From contig CAYLKL010000007.1 of assembly GCA_964384645.1 (NCBI GenBank), positions 1 through 43,526 on the forward strand: a stretch of 43,526 nt of DNA, given 5' to 3'. Each line of letters starts with the position of its first letter. Position 1 is the stretch's first letter. Both the position numbers and the translations under genes were made by a program. The DNA comes from an uncultured Candidatus Saccharibacteria bacterium. GTDB taxonomy: Bacteria > Patescibacteriota > Minisyncoccia > Phycocordibacterales > UBA9973. The notes under the pieces are model-generated. The model searched no databases. It was given only the letters and a program-made list of their open reading frames with translations, and was not told the DNA's origin. Of this stretch, positions 36,757 through 43,526 are shown piece after piece.

Positions 36757-38139
36757 ATGAAAAATCTTATTGTGTTGAGTATTTTGCCTGATTTATCAGG
36801 TTCAGTGTCCGGGTTGTCAGCAGGTGTATTTGTTGTCATCGTGGCCATCATGGCCTTTCTTTACAGAACTGTTGTACCTACAAACATGGTGCATATTGTT
36901 CAATACAGAAAGAAAACAATCTCGTATGGAACAGGTCAGTCTGCTGGTAATGTATATTACAGATGGCCTGCATGGATTCCTTTTTTTGGGGTAACTTCTA
37001 TACATTTACCTGTTAGCAACTTCAATTTAAACTTCAAAGATTATGAAGCTTATGACAAAGACCGAGTACCTTTTGTTCTAGATCTAACGGCTTTCTTTCG
37101 TATTACTGATACAAATATCGCCGCTCAGCGTATTTCAAGTAAGACGGAGTTGGACAATCAGTTAACGTCTATTTTGCAAGGTGCAGTAAGAAAAATTCTT
37201 GCTTCGCACGACATAAATGCAATCATGACGGATCGCGCAACTTTTGGTAAACAATTTACAGAAGAGGTTCAACAAGAACTTCAAAACTGGGGTGTTGAAC
37301 CGGTAAAGAATATTGAACTTATGGATATTCGGGACGCAAAAGGATCATCGGTAATTGCAGACATTATGGCAAAGAAGAGTTCCCAAATAAATATGGAGAG
37401 CCGTATGGAAGTTGCTAAAAATAATAAAGAAGCAGAAATTGCAGAGGTTGTAGCTGCACGTGAAGTCGATGTAGAAAAACAAAATGCACTTGAGGTTGTC
37501 GGTAAACGAACTGCAGAAAAAGACAAGGCGGTAGGTATTGCTAAAGAGGTTTCTGAGCAAGAAATAAAAAATGAGCAAGCCAAAACTGCAGAAAAAGACA
37601 AGACTGTTGAGAAGATTAAATTGGTTCGTGATGCTGAAAATGCTAAAGAAGCAGCTATTGTTGAAGCGGATCAGGAAAAAGAAACAACAATCAGAATTGC
37701 TGATGGTAAACTTCAGGCCACAAAACTTGAAGCTCAGGGAATTGAAGCAAAAGGTAGGGCAGAAGGAGAAGCTGAAAAAGCAAAACAACTCGCTCCTGTT
37801 GAGGCTCAAATTAAATTAGCCAAAGAGATTGGTGGCAATCATAATTATCAAAGTTATCTGGTGTTACTTGAAGCTACTAAGGCGTATACTACAGTTGGTA
37901 CTGAACAAGCTAAAGCATTGCAAGATGCAGAAGTGAAAATCATTGCCAATGGTGGAAACGCTCAGGATGGAGTGAAAAATGCTCTTGATCTTTTTAGCAC
38001 AAAAGGAGGTTTCTCTATTGCTAGCATGCTTGAAGCATTGGAGGCAACACCGCAAGGGCAAAAGCTCGTTGATAGTCTTGGTGATTTGTTTGCTAAAAAA
38101 GAAAACACTGAAAACACTGATAGTAAAAAAGAAGCTTAA
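36757..38139 (+). CDS. SPFH/band-7 (flotillin-like) membrane protein (ATG at 36757; the track starts it at TTG 36694)
   Basis: N-terminal TM, an SPFH domain, then a long Ala/Glu/Lys-rich coiled coil. Confidence 0.8.
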   Translation: MKNLIVLSILPDLSGSVSGLSAGVFVVIVAIMAFLYRTVVPTNMVHIVQYRKKTISYGTGQSAGNVYYRWPAWIPFFGVTSIHLPVSNFNLNFKDYEAYDKDRVPFVLDLTAFFRITDTNIAAQRISSKTELDNQLTSILQGAVRKILASHDINAIMTDRATFGKQFTEEVQQELQNWGVEPVKNIELMDIRDAKGSSVIADIMAKKSSQINMESRMEVAKNNKEAEIAEVVAAREVDVEKQNALEVVGKRTAEKDKAVGIAKEVSEQEIKNEQAKTAEKDKTVEKIKLVRDAENAKEAAIVEADQEKETTIRIADGKLQATKLEAQGIEAKGRAEGEAEKAKQLAPVEAQIKLAKEIGGNHNYQSYLVLLEATKAYTTVGTEQAKALQDAEVKIIANGGNAQDGVKNALDLFSTKGGFSIASMLEALEATPQGQKLVDSLGDLFAKKENTENTDSKKEA

Positions 38140-38153
38140 TTAGTTGCAGTGAT

Positions 38154-38188
38154 CAAAGTCGACCCTTAGGGTCGACTTTTTTTATTTT
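38154..38188 (+). terminator. Strong intrinsic terminator
   Basis: AGTCGACCC-TTA-GGGTCGACT followed by TTTTTTTATTTT. Confidence 0.8.
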
Positions 38189-38201
38189 GCAAAAACTCAT
38201 A

Positions 38202-38256
38202 GCCCTTCAAATCCCGGATTATAAGGAGAGAAGAAGGCAAATAAGACTTTATTAAT
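38202..38256 (+). pseudogene. 3'-terminal remnant (17 codons plus stop: ALQIPDYKERRRQIRLY*) of a DUF45/YgjP-like gene, directly repeating the 3' end of 36148..36669
   Basis: About 47 of 55 nt are identical to 36614-36668, and the reading frame is preserved (QIPDYKERRKQIRLF* vs QIPDYKERRRQIRLY*). Confidence 0.65.
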
Positions 38257-38284
38257 ATTAGACATGCTTTTTTTGACTTCATTT

Positions 38285-38316
38285 TACACGGAACTATTCG
38301 CTCGAATGGTTCGGTG
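38285..38316. repeat. Palindromic element P2 (ACACGGAACTATTCG-CT-CGAATGGTTCGGTGT), 35 bp upstream of the arsR-like start
   Basis: Inverted repeat sharing the core with P1 and P3. Confidence 0.7.
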
Positions 38317-38351
38317 TAAGAAATAAAAATAAAAAGGTGTAAAATATTTGT

Positions 38352-38612
38352 ATGAAGCAATATGAAAAAATATTGAAAGCACTTGCCAACAAAAGAAGGT
38401 TGGAAATAATTAAATATTTAAAAATCAACAAAGAAGCGACGGTCGGCGATCTAGCAGACAAAATAAAAGTATCTATAAAGGCCACATCCAAACATTTAGC
38501 GATTCTCGCAAATGCTGGCGTTTTGGAAAGAGAGCACCGTAGTTCTTTTATTCTTTATTCGCTATCGCGCGAACTAGAGCCGGTCGCAAAAGCAGTTATT
38601 TTTTTGGTTTAA
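38352..38612 (+). CDS. ArsR/SmtB-family HTH transcriptional regulator
   Basis: RLEIIKYLKINKEATVGDLADKIKVSIKATSKHLAILANAGVL is a winged-HTH ArsR signature. Confidence 0.8.
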   Translation: MKQYEKILKALANKRRLEIIKYLKINKEATVGDLADKIKVSIKATSKHLAILANAGVLEREHRSSFILYSLSRELEPVAKAVIFLV

Positions 38613-38630
38613 TTTATTTAGTTGATTTAG

Positions 38631-38668
38631 TATCCATGGAACCATTCGCTCGAATGGTTCCATGGATA
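38631..38668. repeat. Palindromic element P3 (TATCCATGGAACCATTCG-CT-CGAATGGTTCCATGGATA), a perfect 18 bp inverted repeat
   Basis: Perfect palindrome immediately after the arsR-like stop. Confidence 0.75.
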
Positions 38669-38675
38669 TAATGGA

Positions 38676-38861
38676 TTGGGTGGAATGGTGGGGGAAGGAA
38701 GGGGTGTGAATATAGAAAAAGTGCGAGCTTTAGCGGATGGATCTTCAATGCTTGGGCAAATGGCGCTAGGGCAGGGTCTAATAGACCAAATCGGCGATTA
38801 TGCGGATGTGAAGGAATATATAAAAGGGAAATACAATATCGAACCGGAGGTTTGTTGGTAG
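38676..38861 (+). pseudogene. 3' remnant of an sppA-like (S49 signal peptide peptidase) gene, GC-elevated
   Basis: The translation VRALADGSSMLGQMALGQGLIDQIGDYADV matches the conserved SppA C-terminus (..GRVWTG.QAL.LGLVDELGG..). There is no upstream catalytic portion; the frame abuts palindrome P3. Confidence 0.55.
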
Positions 38862-38916
38862 GGGGTGGAATTGAAAAAAGTGTGGTTTTGTGGGATAGTT
38901 CTTAGTATTAAGCACT

Positions 38917-41586
38917 ATGAATCTAGTCCAACTACAAGAAAATCTTGAGAATTTAAGTCAAAACTTTTCAGAGCAAACGTTCATTTTTGATTTGCTTTCA
39001 GTGTATGAGTTGCCTAAAAGTACTATTTCTTTACTTTCTAAAAATCCATACAAATTATCTGGTAGAGATGATCAGATTATCCTCAAGAACAAAGTACTTT
39101 TTCATATAACAACACTCGAGGAAGATGAGCATGTTGCGATCGATGCACTTGCAAAAGATAAGTTCTCATACAAGTTTAACCCTCGATTTATTATCGTTAC
39201 GGATTTCGTAACGTTTTTGGCTATTGATACAAAAACAAAAGAAACACTCGATATTGAAATTAAAGATCTCGGCAAGCATTACGCTTTCTTTTTGCCTTGG
39301 TGCGGAATGGAAAAATCACAGCATGTAAATGAAAATCCTGCCGATATCCGTGCCGCCTACAAAATGGATAAGCTATATCAGGCAATTGTTACTGATGATC
39401 CTGATTACTATAAAAACAATTGCCATGATCTAAACATATTTCTCTCAAGACTTCTGTTCTGCTTCTTTGCGGAAGATACAGGTATTTTTCCTAAAGTTGG
39501 AATGTTTACCAACTCTGTGACTTCTCATACTCACGAAGACGGTAGCGAAATGGATACCTATTTTTCTACACTATTTGATGTTTTGAATACAAAAGATTCA
39601 GATCGATCAAAGTTTGCATCTCATTTTCTAGAATTTCCCTATGTAAACGGAGGTCTTTTTGAAACCAATATTAAGCTACCAACATTTACAGTGAACTCAC
39701 GGAAGTTGATTATTGAATGTGGAAAGCTGAATTGGGATTCTATCAATCCCGATATTTTCGGATCTATGATTCAGGCTGTTGTTCATCCAGGACAGCGTGA
39801 GAATCTTGGAATGCACTACACCTCCGTTCCAAACATAATGAAAGTGATTGAACCTCTCTTTTTAAATGATCTCTATACGGAACTAGAAAATTCAAAGAAT
39901 GATATCAAGAAACTCACAAAACTTCGTGAGCGAGTTTCAAAAATAAAAATCTTTGATCCAGCTTGTGGGTCAGGTAACTTTTTGATTATTTCTTATAAGG
40001 AACTTTCTAAGCTTGAATCAAAGATCATTAGTTATGCCAATGATCTTGGCCATCAGATGATGCCCTATTCGGGTGTATCGCTAAACTCATTTTATGGAAT
40101 TGAGATAGACGATTTTGCACATGAGATAGCTCGACTTTCATTATGGTTGGCACAACACCAGATGAACCAATACTTTGACGGAATGTTTGGAATCATGAAA
40201 GCAACACTCCCTCTTAAAGAAAGTGGAAAGATTGTATGTGCCAATGCAACACGGGCTACTTGGGAAGAAGTTTGTCCTCGCAAGGATCAAGTTGTGGGAG
40301 AATATGAAATCTATGTAGTGGGTAATCCACCATATCTTGGATCTAGAAACCAAGAAGATGAGCAAAAGGAAGATCTAAAAAATCTGTTTGTGAATGACTA
40401 CAAGAGTCTCGACTATATATCAGCTTGGTTTTATAAAGGTGCAAAATATGTTTCAGGTTATGAAAATATTAAACTAGCTTTTGTTTCGACAAACTCGATT
40501 TCTCAAGGAGAACAAGTTTCATTATTGTGGCCAAGAATCTTAGGTGAAGGTGTTGAAATATTTTTTGCGTATCAGTCTTTTAAATGGAAAAATCTTGCAA
40601 AAGGAAATGCAGGAGTTACTTGTGTAATTATTGGATTATCTAACCCTTCAAATCACCCTAAGTATATTTTCAATGATAACCAGTACTCTTTAGTTAAAGA
40701 AATTAATCCATATCTAAAAAATACAACAGTAATAAATGTTAGTAAGCGAAGTAGTCCCATTTCTGAATTACCAGAAATGACATATGGGAATATGCCTCTT
40801 GAAGGGAATTTTTTAAAACTAGATTTATCTGAAAAAGTTGAGTTAATAAATAAATATCCAAATTCAGCAAAATTTATTAGACCACTGATTGGTGGTAGTG
40901 AATTTATGAATGGGAATAGTAGATATTGTCTATGGATAGAAGATGCTGATTTAAATGAAGTAAATAAAATTCCAGATATAAAAAAGCGAATAGAGAGTGT
41001 TCGAAAATTTAGAGAGACTGGCGGAGATGTCGCAAGAACCTTAGCAGACAGATCTCACCAGTTTAGATATCGACATGAAGCTAAAAATCACTTCATAATC
41101 GTACCTTGCACATCTTCAGAAAATAGAGATTATATGCCTTGCGGTGTTTTTAATTCTAAATTCATCAGCCTTAACTCACTTCAAGTGATTTATGATTCAG
41201 ATCTGTATGTTTTTGGTGTATTAGTTTCTAAAATGCACATGACATGGGTGCGTGCTGTGGGAGGCAGACTGAAAACAGACCTAAGATACTCTTCTGCATT
41301 GTGTTACAACACTTTTCCTTTTCCAGATATAACGCCTAAACAAAAAGAATCACTTACTACCCATGTATACAATATTCTGGAAGAGCGCGAGAAATATCCA
41401 AGTAAAACAATGGCTGATTTATATGATCCAGACAAGATGCCAGATGGATTGCGGGAAGCTCACAAATATTTAGATCAAGCCATAGATCAGATATACCGAA
41501 GCAAACCGTTTGAAAGTGACGAAGATCGACTAGCTTACTTGTTCAAACTTTACGAAGAGATGATTACTAGAAAAACTAACCAATAA
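38917..41586 (+). CDS. MmeI-family Type IIL restriction-modification enzyme. A single polypeptide carries an N-terminal PD-(D/E)xK nuclease, a helical spacer, a gamma-class N6-adenine methyltransferase and a C-terminal target-recognition domain.
   Basis: Nuclease motif IIVTDF..LAIDTK (D96, D104, K106); LLFCFFAEDTGIF; FPYVNGGLFE; HYTSVPNIMKVIEPLFL; SAM motif I IFDPACGSGNFL; motif IV VVGNPPY; FVSTNSISQGEQVSLLWP; VPCTSSENRDYMPCG. These blocks are collinear with MmeI. Confidence 0.85.
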   Translation: MNLVQLQENLENLSQNFSEQTFIFDLLSVYELPKSTISLLSKNPYKLSGRDDQIILKNKVLFHITTLEEDEHVAIDALAKDKFSYKFNPRFIIVTDFVTFLAIDTKTKETLDIEIKDLGKHYAFFLPWCGMEKSQHVNENPADIRAAYKMDKLYQAIVTDDPDYYKNNCHDLNIFLSRLLFCFFAEDTGIFPKVGMFTNSVTSHTHEDGSEMDTYFSTLFDVLNTKDSDRSKFASHFLEFPYVNGGLFETNIKLPTFTVNSRKLIIECGKLNWDSINPDIFGSMIQAVVHPGQRENLGMHYTSVPNIMKVIEPLFLNDLYTELENSKNDIKKLTKLRERVSKIKIFDPACGSGNFLIISYKELSKLESKIISYANDLGHQMMPYSGVSLNSFYGIEIDDFAHEIARLSLWLAQHQMNQYFDGMFGIMKATLPLKESGKIVCANATRATWEEVCPRKDQVVGEYEIYVVGNPPYLGSRNQEDEQKEDLKNLFVNDYKSLDYISAWFYKGAKYVSGYENIKLAFVSTNSISQGEQVSLLWPRILGEGVEIFFAYQSFKWKNLAKGNAGVTCVIIGLSNPSNHPKYIFNDNQYSLVKEINPYLKNTTVINVSKRSSPISELPEMTYGNMPLEGNFLKLDLSEKVELINKYPNSAKFIRPLIGGSEFMNGNSRYCLWIEDADLNEVNKIPDIKKRIESVRKFRETGGDVARTLADRSHQFRYRHEAKNHFIIVPCTSSENRDYMPCGVFNSKFISLNSLQVIYDSDLYVFGVLVSKMHMTWVRAVGGRLKTDLRYSSALCYNTFPFPDITPKQKESLTTHVYNILEEREKYPSKTMADLYDPDKMPDGLREAHKYLDQAIDQIYRSKPFESDEDRLAYLFKLYEEMITRKTNQ

Positions 41587-41590
41587 TATT

Positions 41591-43526
41591 ATGAAAACAA
41601 TTCAAGTAGCAGAAGCAACATACGCACAAACAGGACAAAGCACCAAGCTTAATGAGTTTGGTATGCGTGAAATGCAGGCAAAAGCATTTGAGAAAAAAGG
41701 TGCTCAATACCTCCTATTGAAAGCACCACCTGCATCTGGAAAATCTAGAGCTTTAATGTTTCTTGCTTTAGACAAGCTGACTAATCAAGGAATCAAAAAG
41801 GTTATTGTTGCTGTCCCTGAAAAATCTATTGGTGGATCTTTCGGTGAGACCAATTTAACTCAAGGTGGCTTCTTTGCTGACTGGAAACCCAACGATAATT
41901 ACAACCTATGTACTCCAGGTCTCGATAACGCCAAGGGTAAGGTTGAGGCGTTTAAGAACTTTATGGATAACGATGAGAAGATTCTTATCTGCACTCACGC
42001 TACTCTTCGTTTTGCATGTGAACAAATCGAGGATACGAAGTTTAATGACATGCTTATTGCTATAGATGAGTTCCATCATGTTTCTGCTGATAAAGAAAGC
42101 AGTATTTTAGGACGAGTTCTACACGGAATAATGACGAACTCAAACGCACACATTATTGCTATGACGGGGTCGTATTTCCGTGGTGACGGTGTAGCTGTTT
42201 TGTTACCACAAGATGAGGCTAAGTTTCAAAAAGTAACTTACAACTACTACCAGCAGTTGAACGGCTATACATATTTAAAAACCTTGGGTATTGGATACCA
42301 CTTTTATCAAGGTAAATATACTTCGGCGATTGCTGAGGTTCTTGATACAAACAAGAAAACGATTTTACACATTCCAAATGTAAACTCTGGAGAATCTACC
42401 AAAGATAAACTCAATGAAGTTGATTTGATCTTGGATATTATCGGTGAGGTAGACCATCAAGATCGTGAGACTGGTGTTATCTATGTAAAGCGTGACGGTG
42501 ACGGAAAAATACTCAAGGTAGCAAATCTTGTAGATGATTCTGTTGATCGAGACAAGATTTCAAACTATCTCCGTACTATGAAAAAGGAAGAGGACATGGA
42601 TATTATTATTGCTCTTGGTATGGCGAAAGAAGGTTTTGACTGGCCGTACTGCGAACACGCTTTGACTGTCGGCTATCGTAGTTCGCTTACTGAGATCATT
42701 CAGATCATCGGTCGCTGTACTCGTGACAGTGCAAACAAAACCCATGCACAATTCACTAATCTTATTGCTCAACCTGATGCAAAAGACGGCGAGGTTAAAG
42801 TGTCAGTAAACAACATGCTCAAGGCGATCACTTGTTCTTTGCTTATGGAACAAGTTATGGCTCCGCACTATAACTTCAAACCACGATTTCCAAATGATGA
42901 CACCACTTTTACTCCAGGTGAAATAAAGGTAAATGGATTCAAAGCACCAAGTACGGATCGTGTTCGAGAAATTATTGAATCTGATATCAACGATCTCAAA
43001 GCTTCAATTCTTCAAGATGATCAAATGATTAAAGCGTTGCCTGGAAATGTTGATCCCGAGGTAATCAACAAAGTAATGATCCCAAAGATCATTCAGATGA
43101 AATACCCTGATCTAACAGATCTTGAAGTAGAGGAAGTTCGTCAACACGTTGTTGTTGATTCTGTAATTAAGAACGGAGAAATCAAAGAAGTTGGTGATAA
43201 GAAATTTGTTCGTATGGCAGGTCAGTTTGTGAATATTGATGATCTAAATATTGACCTTATCGACAGTATCAATCCGTTCCAAGAAGCTTTTGAGATTCTC
43301 TCAAAATCAGTGACTTCAAGTATCCTTAAGGTTATTCAAGATACAATTGATTCATCTCGAATCGAGATGACACCAGAAGAAGTTAAGATCCTATGGCCTA
43401 AAGCTAAGGAGTTCACAATACAAACAGGTCGAAAGCCAGACATATCTTCGTCTGACCCCCTTGAGAAGCGTTTGGCGGAAGCGGTACTGTACTTGAAGAA
43501 GCTCAAGGCTGAACAAATTCAAAATT
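41591..43526 (+). CDS. SF2 (ResIII/DEAH-type) helicase, 3'-truncated by the window end (at least 645 aa). It starts 4 nt after the MmeI-like stop and is absent from the ORF track because no stop lies within the window.
   Basis: Motif I LLKAPPASGKS, motif II IAIDEFHH, motif III IAMTGSY, motif VI QIIGRCTR. The frame is open from the ATG at 41591 to the window end. Confidence 0.75.
   Translation, partial: MKTIQVAEATYAQTGQSTKLNEFGMREMQAKAFEKKGAQYLLLKAPPASGKSRALMFLALDKLTNQGIKKVIVAVPEKSIGGSFGETNLTQGGFFADWKPNDNYNLCTPGLDNAKGKVEAFKNFMDNDEKILICTHATLRFACEQIEDTKFNDMLIAIDEFHHVSADKESSILGRVLHGIMTNSNAHIIAMTGSYFRGDGVAVLLPQDEAKFQKVTYNYYQQLNGYTYLKTLGIGYHFYQGKYTSAIAEVLDTNKKTILHIPNVNSGESTKDKLNEVDLILDIIGEVDHQDRETGVIYVKRDGDGKILKVANLVDDSVDRDKISNYLRTMKKEEDMDIIIALGMAKEGFDWPYCEHALTVGYRSSLTEIIQIIGRCTRDSANKTHAQFTNLIAQPDAKDGEVKVSVNNMLKAITCSLLMEQVMAPHYNFKPRFPNDDTTFTPGEIKVNGFKAPSTDRVREIIESDINDLKASILQDDQMIKALPGNVDPEVINKVMIPKIIQMKYPDLTDLEVEEVRQHVVVDSVIKNGEIKEVGDKKFVRMAGQFVNIDDLNIDLIDSINPFQEAFEILSKSVTSSILKVIQDTIDSSRIEMTPEEVKILWPKAKEFTIQTGRKPDISSSDPLEKRLAEAVLYLKKLKAEQIQN

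What the first reader, a model, noticed from the sequence alone, without database searches (positions are those of the whole stretch)
38917..43526. MmeI-family Type IIL R-M enzyme operonically coupled to an SF2 helicase: a non-canonical two-gene defence module
The 889 aa protein is collinear with MmeI along its whole length, with an intact PD-(D/E)xK motif, gamma-class MTase motifs I and IV, and a TRD. Such enzymes normally act as solitary single-chain R-M-S proteins. Here a DEAH/ResIII-type helicase (GKS, DEFHH, TGS and QxxGRxxR motifs) starts 4 nt downstream on the same strand and continues beyond the window. That pairing is not a Type I system (no separate HsdS or HsdR-N nuclease). It is not Type III (Mod proteins are beta-class and lack a nuclease). 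It is not Type ISP (a single polypeptide with the opposite domain order). The nearest analogy is the pglX-brxHII pair of BREX type 3, but brxC and brxF are absent upstream. The locus sits in a mosaic region with gene remnants and palindromes, consistent with a mobile defence island.
Basis: partly seen in the sequence, partly recalled or inferred. Interest (0 to 1): 0.75.

Follow-up and report, generated by a model that had tools for sequence, protein, structure and literature searches.

The report
Known three-gene MmeI-like restriction system (YeeABC)
The two genes are real and truly linked, but they are the first two genes of a three-gene restriction-like system (DnmA/YeeA, YeeB, YeeC) first described in 2009, in which the MmeI-like protein has lost its own DNA-cutting site and a separate helicase and a separate nuclease are thought to do the cutting.

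Summary
The 889-aa MmeI-family ORF (38917-41586) and an SF2 helicase starting 4 nt downstream (41591) are confirmed. Three parts of the finding are wrong.

1. The nuclease motif is not intact. MmeI's catalytic D70/E80/K82 align to a deletion plus 'FHIT'. None of 62 helicase-linked homologues keeps ExK.
2. The helicase does not run beyond the window. It is complete at 645 aa, and the window ends on the first base of its stop codon.
3. The module has three genes, not two. A T5orf172/GIY-YIG protein follows the helicase in 78/78 related loci with room. An MmeI-like gene precedes it in 59/59.

The helicase is 63% identical to B. subtilis YeeB and 53% to Vibrio crassostreae YeeB. Morgan et al. (2009) described this exact subfamily: MmeI homologues without PD-ExK, always flanked by a DEAD helicase and a GIY-YIG protein. 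Later work showed that DnmA methylates GACGAG. The Bacillus locus gave no phage protection, but the Vibrio yeeAB genes did.

This copy looks functional: helicase dN/dS is about 0.01, and the target recognition domain (TRD) has been swapped. The most likely mechanism is an ATP-dependent, Type I/ISP-like restriction system that cuts with a separate GIY-YIG nuclease. That mechanism is inferred, not shown. Verdict: a new member of a known but mechanistically uncharacterised kind.

The parts
38917..41586 (+). yeeA/dnmA-like gene: 889-aa MmeI-family gamma-class N6-adenine DNA methyltransferase plus specificity protein, without the PD-ExK catalytic triad
   Evidence: ORF. Pfam MmeI_N, MmeI_hel, MmeI_Mtase, MmeI_TRD and MmeI_C. 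PADLOC REase_MTase_IIG, 1011 bits. 5hr4 at E=2e-185.
38917..39390 (+). N-terminal MmeI_N domain, a degenerate nuclease-like domain. 'QIILKNKVLFHIT' (39073-39111) takes the place of MmeI D70...E80-x-K82. 'VTDFVTFLAIDTK' (39196-39234) corresponds to MmeI D115/D123.
   Evidence: Alignments; coordinates; catalytic residue numbering from PMC2731913. dN/dS is 0.02-0.08 against close relatives, so the domain is maintained. It is probably a docking surface (inference).
39886..40671 (+). MTase domain, with motif I FDPACGSGNFL (39952-39984) and motif IV NPPY (40324-40335)
   Evidence: Pfam MmeI_Mtase E=2e-103; motif coordinates.
40732..41331 (+). Target recognition domain, exchanged relative to the closest relatives. 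The contact residues K786-x-D788, R790, S754 and N753 suggest a site ending in (C)RAG.
   Evidence: DNA similarity to relatives breaks at 40646-41188. TRD identity is 38-46% against 91-96% for the N domain. The recognition code comes from PMC2731914, applied to the alignment.
41332..41565 (+). MmeI_C helical C-terminal domain
   Evidence: Pfam. It is 82-94% identical to close relatives, with dN/dS 0.06-0.10.
41591..43526 (+). yeeB-like gene: complete 645-aa SF2 DEAH-type helicase/translocase. Motifs: Walker A PPASGKS 41726-41746, DEFHH 42065-42079, TGS 42164-42172, QIIGRCTRD 42701-42727. Base 43526 is the first base of the stop codon.
38676..38861 (+). 61-aa C-terminal remnant of a Peptidase_S49 (SppA) gene just upstream of the cassette. 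This is context, marking the left junction.
   Evidence: Pfam E=7e-6. Homology to related cassettes begins only at 38924.

Best explanation
The locus holds the first two genes of a DnmA/YeeA-YeeB-YeeC three-gene system. This is an MmeI-derived, restriction-modification-like defence operon. Its third gene, a T5orf172/GIY-YIG nuclease, should begin 1-2 nt beyond the window end.

Proposed mechanism:
1. The MmeI-like protein recognises a short asymmetric site through its TRD. The predicted site ends in (C)RAG. It methylates one adenine on one strand to mark self DNA. It cannot cut, because its PD-ExK residues are gone.
2. Its retained but catalytically dead N-terminal domain, and perhaps its C-terminal helices, dock the YeeB-like SF2 motor. 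That motor most resembles dsDNA translocases such as HsdR and Snf2.
3. On unmethylated sites the complex uses ATP to translocate or loop DNA, and the YeeC-like GIY-YIG nuclease cleaves it.

What is shown here: domain content, loss of the triad, orthology to YeeB, invariant three-gene synteny, strong purifying selection and TRD exchange.
What is shown in the literature: DnmA methylates GACGAG on one strand; YeeA alone has no endonuclease activity; Vibrio yeeAB gives phage resistance.
What is inferred: docking through the N domain, translocation, and cleavage by YeeC.
For: Family assignment of the methyltransferase:
- MmeI domains are present and the MTase motifs are intact.
- The catalytic triad is absent in the window protein and in all 62 helicase-linked homologues.

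Orthology of the partners:
- The helicase is 63% identical over 605 aa to B. subtilis YeeB and 53% over its full length to V. crassostreae YeeB.
- The YeeC-like protein of 98%-identical relatives is 38% identical to B. subtilis YeeC, E=1e-72.
- The GIY-YIG-type residues GxIYxL, YKIG, R, H and PrEWF are conserved at 90% or more.

Synteny:
- An MmeI-like gene lies upstream in 59/59 loci with room, and a YeeC-like gene lies downstream in 78/78, across many phyla and on plasmids.

Signs that this copy is functional:
- dN/dS is about 0.01 for the helicase, 0.02-0.08 for the MTase N domain and 0.04-0.06 for YeeC. The TRD is swapped, at 38-46% identity.

Motor type:

Literature:
- PMC2731913 describes this subfamily and proposes this mechanism.
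- PMC7261158 covers DnmA and GACGmAG.
- bioRxiv 10.1101/2021.05.05.442762 reports that yeeAB mediates phage resistance in V. crassostreae.
Against: - The third gene is not visible in this window, because the contig ends at the helicase stop codon.
- No biochemical demonstration of restriction exists for any member.
- The B. subtilis locus gave no protection against three phages or against plasmid transformation.
- The DnmA motif is not depleted in Bacillus phage genomes.
- The MTase was not aligned directly with DnmA itself. Its subfamily assignment rests on loss of the motif plus synteny.
- The window lacks the small HTH_3 gene that precedes the cassette in its closest relatives.
Confidence: 0.72

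Rival explanations
1. One reading: an intact single-chain Type IIL enzyme (MmeI-like, cutting with its own PD-(D/E)xK site) that has recruited an accessory helicase, forming a new two-gene module.
For: The protein is collinear with MmeI. A D96-x7-D104-x-K106 pattern is present and fairly well conserved in the clade: D104 in 62/62, K106 in 53/62, D96 in 54/62.
Against: The experimentally defined triad D70/E80/K82 is missing. The D..D.K pattern aligns to MmeI D115/D123/I125, which is not the catalytic site, and it varies (N at D96 in 8 sequences, L or R at K106 in 7). YeeA and MslORFHP showed no endonuclease activity when expressed. A third gene encoding a nuclease is invariably present.
Confidence: 0.04
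2. A relic, or an orphan methyltransferase. As proposed for B. subtilis, the MTase serves epigenetic regulation and the helicase and nuclease genes are non-functional leftovers.
For: In B. subtilis, dnmA, yeeB and yeeC deletions did not change phage sensitivity or transformation, and DnmA affects gene expression.
Against: Helicase dN/dS is about 0.01 at dS about 1. The helicase keeps the C-terminal ~40 aa that B. subtilis YeeB lacks. All motor motifs are intact. TRD exchange is typical of systems under selection for new specificity. The three-gene order holds across many phyla.
Confidence: 0.12
3. A methylation-guided defence that does not work by classical cleavage of unmethylated sites. It could be BREX- or DISARM-like exclusion, or an abortive response, with the helicase and GIY-YIG protein acting on replication intermediates or on host DNA.
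For: The MTase gives weak hits to PglX and DrmMI models. [quoted passage not shown] Vibrio protection was specific to certain phage clades.
Against: PglX scores are far below the family cut-offs (41.8 bits against a cut-off of 500). No PglZ, BrxC or DrmA/B families appear in the flanks of relatives. The conserved GIY-YIG catalytic residues argue for DNA cutting.
Confidence: 0.12

Closest known systems
DnmA(YeeA)-YeeB-YeeC of Bacillus subtilis and the yeeAB(C) locus of Vibrio crassostreae. This is the 'second set' of MmeI homologues in Morgan et al. 2009 (PMC2731913).
   Same: An MmeI-like MTase-TRD protein without PD-ExK, followed on the same strand by a YeeB-type helicase (63% and 53% identity). 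In all relatives a T5orf172/GIY-YIG protein then follows (38% identity to YeeC). The locus sits on mobile or defence-island DNA.
   Different: The host is probably a Patescibacteria (CPR) bacterium. The helicase is full length, unlike the C-terminally shorter B. subtilis YeeB. The TRD differs, so the specificity differs. The closest relatives carry the cassette next to a convergent large serine recombinase and a small HTH_3 gene, but the HTH_3 gene is absent here. The third gene lies beyond the window.
MmeI-family Type IIL single-chain restriction-modification enzymes (MmeI, NmeAIII)
   Same: The same five-domain layout, the same gamma-class MTase and TRD, and probably the same single-strand modification and amino-acid/base recognition code.
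   Different: The catalytic D70/E80/K82 are absent, and there is a 7-aa deletion where D70 sits. The gene is not solitary: it is always linked to a helicase and a nuclease.
Type ISP (LlaGI/LlaBIII) and Type I restriction enzymes
   Different: There are three separate polypeptides rather than one (ISP). There is no HsdS and no HsdM/HsdR architecture. The nuclease is GIY-YIG rather than PD-(D/E)xK or Mrr. The TRD is fused to the MTase.
BREX type 3 pglXI-brxHII pair
   Same: An N6-adenine MTase of the same broad Eco57I/MmeI-like class lies next to an SF2 helicase.
   Different: PglX models score far below their cut-offs. There is no BrxC, PglZ, BrxA or BrxF in any related locus examined. A GIY-YIG nuclease is present instead.

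Membership tests
DnmA/YeeA-YeeB-YeeC three-gene MmeI-like system | An MmeI-homologous MTase-TRD protein that lacks the PD-ExK residues aligned with MmeI D70/E80/K82 | tested here: met
   definition taken from PMC2731913.
DnmA/YeeA-YeeB-YeeC three-gene MmeI-like system | A YeeB-type DEAD/DEAH helicase immediately downstream on the same strand | tested here: met
   A 4-nt gap. 63% identity to B. subtilis YeeB and 53% to V. crassostreae YeeB. Those reference sequences were machine-read from Fig. S5 of PMC9973331, so the identities are approximate.
DnmA/YeeA-YeeB-YeeC three-gene MmeI-like system | A YeeC-type T5orf172/GIY-YIG protein following the helicase | not testable with these tools
   The window ends at the helicase stop codon. 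The gene is present in 78/78 related loci with at least 1.3 kb downstream. The L001 protein is 38% identical to B. subtilis YeeC.
DnmA/YeeA-YeeB-YeeC three-gene MmeI-like system | Direct sequence match of the MTase to DnmA itself | not tested
The assignment rests on motif loss and synteny.
DnmA/YeeA-YeeB-YeeC three-gene MmeI-like system | m6A on one strand of an asymmetric site; phage or plasmid restriction | not testable with these tools
   This needs a methylome and a challenge assay. The literature is mixed.
MmeI-family Type IIL single-chain R-M-S enzyme | Similarity to MmeI along the whole length | tested here: met
MmeI-family Type IIL single-chain R-M-S enzyme | Conserved PD-ExK catalytic residues (D70, E80, K82) | tested here: not met
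MmeI-family Type IIL single-chain R-M-S enzyme | Acts alone, with no consistently flanking genes | tested here: not met
   Helicase and nuclease are linked in 59/59 and 78/78 loci.
BREX (type 3 pglXI-brxHII) | A PglX-family MTase scoring above the family cut-off | tested here: not met
   The best NCBIfam BREX PglX score is 41.8 bits against a cut-off of 500. PADLOC PglX E-values are around 1e-10, against 0 for REase_MTase_IIG.
BREX (type 3 pglXI-brxHII) | BrxC and PglZ in the operon | tested here: not met
   Neither appears in the precomputed Pfam or product annotations of the flanks of L001, L004-L009. Downstream of this window itself cannot be seen.
Type ISP | A single polypeptide in the order nuclease-helicase-MTase-TRD | tested here: not met
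   The ORFs are separate and in the opposite order.
Type I R-M | Separate HsdM and HsdS, plus HsdR carrying an N-terminal PD-(D/E)xK nuclease | tested here: not met
   The TRD is fused to the MTase. The helicase has no recognisable nuclease domain. Only the motor lobes resemble HsdR.
DISARM class 1 | DrmMI together with DrmA, DrmB (DUF1998) and DrmC/DrmD | tested here: not met
   The DrmMI hit is partial (139 bits, aa 467-865) against 1011 bits for IIG. The helicase does not hit DrmA or DrmD models. No such families occur in the flanks of relatives.

The most novel reading that the evidence does not exclude
YeeABC may be a distinct, still uncharacterised class of ATP-dependent restriction enzyme. 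It would combine a hemimethylating MmeI-type M-S subunit, whose dead nuclease domain has become a docking platform, with an HsdR/Snf2-like dsDNA motor and a separate GIY-YIG nuclease.

In Patescibacteria it would spread as a serine-recombinase-linked cassette. The helicase sequence would stay almost frozen (dN/dS about 0.01) while TRDs are swapped.

A bolder sub-variant is that the clade-specific D96-x7-D104-x-K106 forms a relocated nuclease site that works only when the helicase is bound.
Probability: 0.45. Interest if true: 0.5.

Novelty: new member of a known kind. Interest (0 to 1): 0.3.

Why it matters
The finding itself is not a discovery. The pairing was reported in 2009 and has a name.

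It still matters in three ways:
- Standard annotation (PADLOC's 'Type IIG REase-MTase', PGAP's 'DNA methyltransferase') would call this an ordinary single-protein enzyme and miss both the loss of the nuclease site and the helicase and nuclease partners.
- The family is very widespread. It occurs in at least 592 species genomes and 265 plasmids, yet nobody has shown biochemically how it cuts.
- The copy here, and its near-identical relatives in candidate-phyla bacteria, are under very strong selection. They would be good material for reconstitution, and for testing whether a GIY-YIG nuclease can be driven by an MmeI-type specificity subunit.

Tried and rejected
- Exact-sequence look-up of the window's MmeI-like protein found no record, so the contig could not be extended. 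The downstream gene had to be inferred from relatives whose helicases are 96-99% identical.
- A sequence search of the PDB with the helicase gave nothing at E<=0.1.
- Two long helicase homologues were checked as possible Rosetta-stone fusions: P0150 (1181 aa) and P0125 (838 aa). Their extensions match neither YeeC nor the MmeI-like protein.
- Accessions of the plasmid homologues were searched for in Table S4 of PMC9973331, with no hits.
- Rfam found only tRNAs in the window.
- Promoter-like sites in 38100-43526 were no more frequent than in shuffled sequence. One plausible site lies at 38871-38899. No terminator-like site lies between the two genes.
- BREX, DISARM, Type I, Type III and Type ISP memberships were considered and rejected on their defining features (see the membership table).
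- The idea that D96..D104-x-K106 is the catalytic motif was rejected, because it aligns with MmeI D115/D123/I125 and is variable within the clade.
Full report
**What is in the sequence.**

The window holds an 889-aa ORF at 38917-41586 on the + strand. A second ORF has its ATG at 41591, 4 nt after the TAA stop of the first.

The first protein hits all five Pfam domains defined on MmeI: MmeI_N, MmeI_hel, MmeI_Mtase, MmeI_TRD and MmeI_C. It also hits the PADLOC Type IIG model end to end at 1011 bits, and MmeI itself (PDB 5hr4) at E=2e-185. MTase motif I (FDPACGSGNFL) and motif IV (NPPY) are intact.

The second protein is an SF2 helicase with PPASGKS, DEFHH, TGS and QIIGRCTRD motifs. Its hits to ResIII, DEAD and Helicase_C are weak.

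**Three corrections to the observation.**

1. The helicase is not truncated.
   - All close homologues are about 645 aa.
   - A blastn alignment to related loci puts window base 43526 on the first base of the stop codon.
2. The nuclease motif is not intact.
   - The MmeI N-terminal sequence was recalled from memory and verified as identical to 5hr4 residues 1-176.
   - Aligned to it, the catalytic D70...E80-x-K82 falls on a 7-aa deletion and on 'F-H-I-T' in the window protein. The residue numbering was confirmed in Morgan et al. 2009, PMC2731913.
   - In an alignment of 62 helicase-linked homologues, the E80 column is K/R/Q/H and the K82 column is a gap or T/V. No sequence keeps ExK.
   - The stretch that looks like a PD-DxK motif is VTD96-x7-D104-T-K106. 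It aligns with MmeI D115/D123/I125, in later strands of the domain. It varies within the clade: N at 96 in 8 sequences, L or R at 106 in 7.
3. The module has three genes.
   - Look-ups of helicases 96-99% identical to the window's returned contigs with the same cassette: HTH_3 (65-68 aa), MmeI-like (893-898 aa), helicase (645 aa), and a T5orf172/MUG113 protein (382-384 aa) starting 2 nt after the helicase stop. A convergent large serine recombinase follows.

**Is the linkage general?**

tblastn against plasmids found the helicase on 265 records. Examples from Bacillus, Klebsiella and Ligilactobacillus are all annotated 'DNA methyltransferase - DEAD/DEAH helicase - GIY-YIG nuclease'.

A profile scan of one genome per species found at least 592 genomes with a relative. 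The 80 loci kept span Bacteroidota, Pseudomonadota, Actinomycetota, Bacillota, Campylobacterota, Planctomycetota, Chlamydiota, Patescibacteria and others.

In my census:
- An MmeI-like ORF lies upstream on the same strand in 59 of 59 loci with at least 5 kb upstream.
- A YeeC-like ORF follows the helicase in 78 of 78 loci with at least 1.3 kb downstream.

The helicase family is discrete. Among 1.84 billion 50%-identity cluster representatives, 387 match at E<=1e-30.

**Identity with a described system.**

Morgan et al. 2009 (PMC2731913) split the MmeI homologues into two sets. One has PD-ExK and no consistent neighbours. The other lacks the motif, differs in the first ~100 residues, and is 'invariably' flanked by a DEAD-family helicase (YeeB-like) and a GIY-YIG protein (YeeC-like). 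B. subtilis YeeA is the type example of the second set.

That paper also reported that YeeA and a Moraxella homologue showed no endonuclease activity. The authors proposed that the MmeI-like subunit supplies specificity and modification while the other two proteins cut.

Later work added the following:
- YeeA (renamed DnmA) makes GACG(m6A)G (PMC7261158).
- The three-gene synteny is conserved, but the Bacillus locus gave no phage or plasmid restriction (PMC9973331).
- In Vibrio crassostreae, yeeAB mediates resistance to a set of phages (bioRxiv 10.1101/2021.05.05.442762).

I recovered the B. subtilis and V. crassostreae YeeB and YeeC sequences from the machine-read Fig. S5 of PMC9973331, so the percentages below are approximate:
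- The window helicase is 63% identical over 605 aa to B. subtilis YeeB.
- It is 53% identical over its full length to V. crassostreae YeeB.
- The T5orf172 protein of the close relative L001 is 38% identical to B. subtilis YeeC, E=1e-72.

I could not obtain the DnmA sequence. The MTase's subfamily assignment therefore rests on motif loss plus synteny.

**Is this copy likely to work?**

- Between the window and three relatives, the helicase gene has dS about 1.0-1.2 but dN about 0.01-0.02, giving dN/dS of 0.01-0.016.
- The N-terminal part of the MTase (0.02-0.08), its C domain (0.06-0.10) and YeeC (0.04-0.06) are also strongly constrained.
- The TRD is only 38-46% identical where the N domain is 91-96% identical. 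DNA similarity breaks at 40646-41188. This is the pattern of specificity exchange seen in active restriction systems.
- The helicase keeps the C-terminal ~40 residues that B. subtilis YeeB lacks and V. crassostreae YeeB has.
- In YeeC-like proteins, the GIY-YIG-type residues GxIYxL, YKIG, R, H and PrEWF are conserved at 90% or more.

**Mechanism.**

The most likely mechanism is an ATP-dependent, Type I/ISP-like restriction complex made of three polypeptides:
- The MmeI-like subunit reads the site and methylates one strand.
- The retained but dead N domain docks the motor.
- The GIY-YIG protein cuts.

Only the parts list, the conservation and the literature phenotypes are shown. The docking, translocation and cutting steps are inferred.

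I applied the MmeI-family recognition code (PMC2731914) to the alignment:
- K786-x-D788 (MmeI E806/R808) predicts G at position 6.
- R790 with the small S754 (MmeI R810/A774) predicts a purine at position 4.
- N753 (MmeI N773) suggests C at position 3.

The predicted site is therefore NN(C)RAG, with A5 methylated. This transfers a rule derived from nuclease-active MmeI enzymes, so it is a testable guess.

**Rivals.**

- The 'relic/orphan methylase' reading fits B. subtilis, but not the selection pattern seen here.
- A BREX-like, non-cleaving mechanism cannot be excluded. However, PglX models score far below their cut-offs (41.8 against 500 bits). No BrxC, PglZ or Drm partners occur in the flanks of relatives.

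**Context of this copy.**

Homology to related cassettes starts at 38924. The HTH_3 gene that precedes the MTase in the closest relatives is absent from the window.

Upstream of the cassette lie:
- a 61-aa SppA (Peptidase_S49) C-terminal remnant at 38676-38861;
- an ArsR-type HTH gene at 38352-38612;
- two hairpins bracketing the ArsR-type gene, both carrying the same 17-mer.

The 'mosaic junction' remark is therefore fair.

**Verdict.**

The locus is a new member, probably from a Patescibacteria genome, of a known three-gene system whose mechanism is still uncharacterised. It is not a new two-gene module.

Noticed in passing
L059:5992-6990, L052:5998-6975, L033:5157-6824, L084:1824-2786, L056:1608-5101 (and about 20 further loci): In about 25 of 76 related loci, 1-6 kb of 'guest' genes sit between the MmeI-like gene and the helicase, on the same strand. 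They include RhuM, Fic+HTH, Schlafen AlbA_2/HATPase_c_4, DUF1016/YhcG and a HamA+helicase (Hachiman-like) pair. From my own knowledge, not a tool result, similar guests are found inside Type I R-M operons. This suggests the MTase-motor junction is an insertion hotspot for other defence genes.
   Followed up: partly
window 41591-43525 versus L001:10001-11935, L004:10001-11935, L006:2972-4906: The helicase is almost frozen at protein level (96-99% identity, dN/dS 0.009-0.016) while synonymous sites are near saturation (dS about 1.0-1.2). Near-identical proteins are recorded under Nomurabacteria, Magasanikbacteria, Paceibacterota and even Izemoplasmatales. This degree of constraint is unusual for a defence gene and is unexplained.
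   Followed up: partly
L001:7089-14361, L004:7099-14406, L006:75-7332: In the closest relatives the cassette is HTH_3, MTase, helicase, T5orf172, then a convergent large serine recombinase whose 3' end overlaps the T5orf172 gene by about 8 nt. A CBASS-type CD-NTase (L004/L005) or a KAP NTPase (L006) lies next door. This suggests a recombinase-borne mobile defence cassette. B. subtilis also has recombinase genes (yefB/yefC) next to dnmA (PMC9973331).
   Followed up: no
window 38291-38320 and 38631-38668: An ArsR-type HTH gene (38352-38612) is bracketed by two hairpins that share the 17-mer ATTCGCTCGAATGGTTC. The second is a perfect 18+18 nt palindrome. The 17-mer occurs nowhere else in the window (0 expected by chance).
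   Followed up: partly
window 38676-38861: There is a 61-aa ORF matching only the C-terminal part of Peptidase_S49 (SppA). No N-terminal part lies upstream. It is a gene remnant at the left junction of the cassette.
   Followed up: partly
L001:11940-13088 (protein residues 9-18 and 100-111): The N-terminal half of the YeeC-like protein matches no family. It carries two conserved acidic repeats of the form D-D-x-L-x-L-L, each followed by an R..F..F-type helix. These could be docking peptides for the helicase or the MTase.
   Followed up: no
window 40732-41331 versus L007:3347-5992: The window's TRD is 63% identical to that of a Bacillus plasmid (pBTBD59S1) homologue, although the rest of that protein is only 40-57% identical. 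Against its closest relatives the window's TRD is only 38-46% identical. This is evidence for TRD exchange across phyla.
   Followed up: partly
window 43526: The contig ends exactly on the first base of the helicase stop codon, right at the helicase/yeeC junction that overlaps or abuts in relatives. This may be an assembly break caused by several diverged copies of the cassette in the sample.
   Followed up: no
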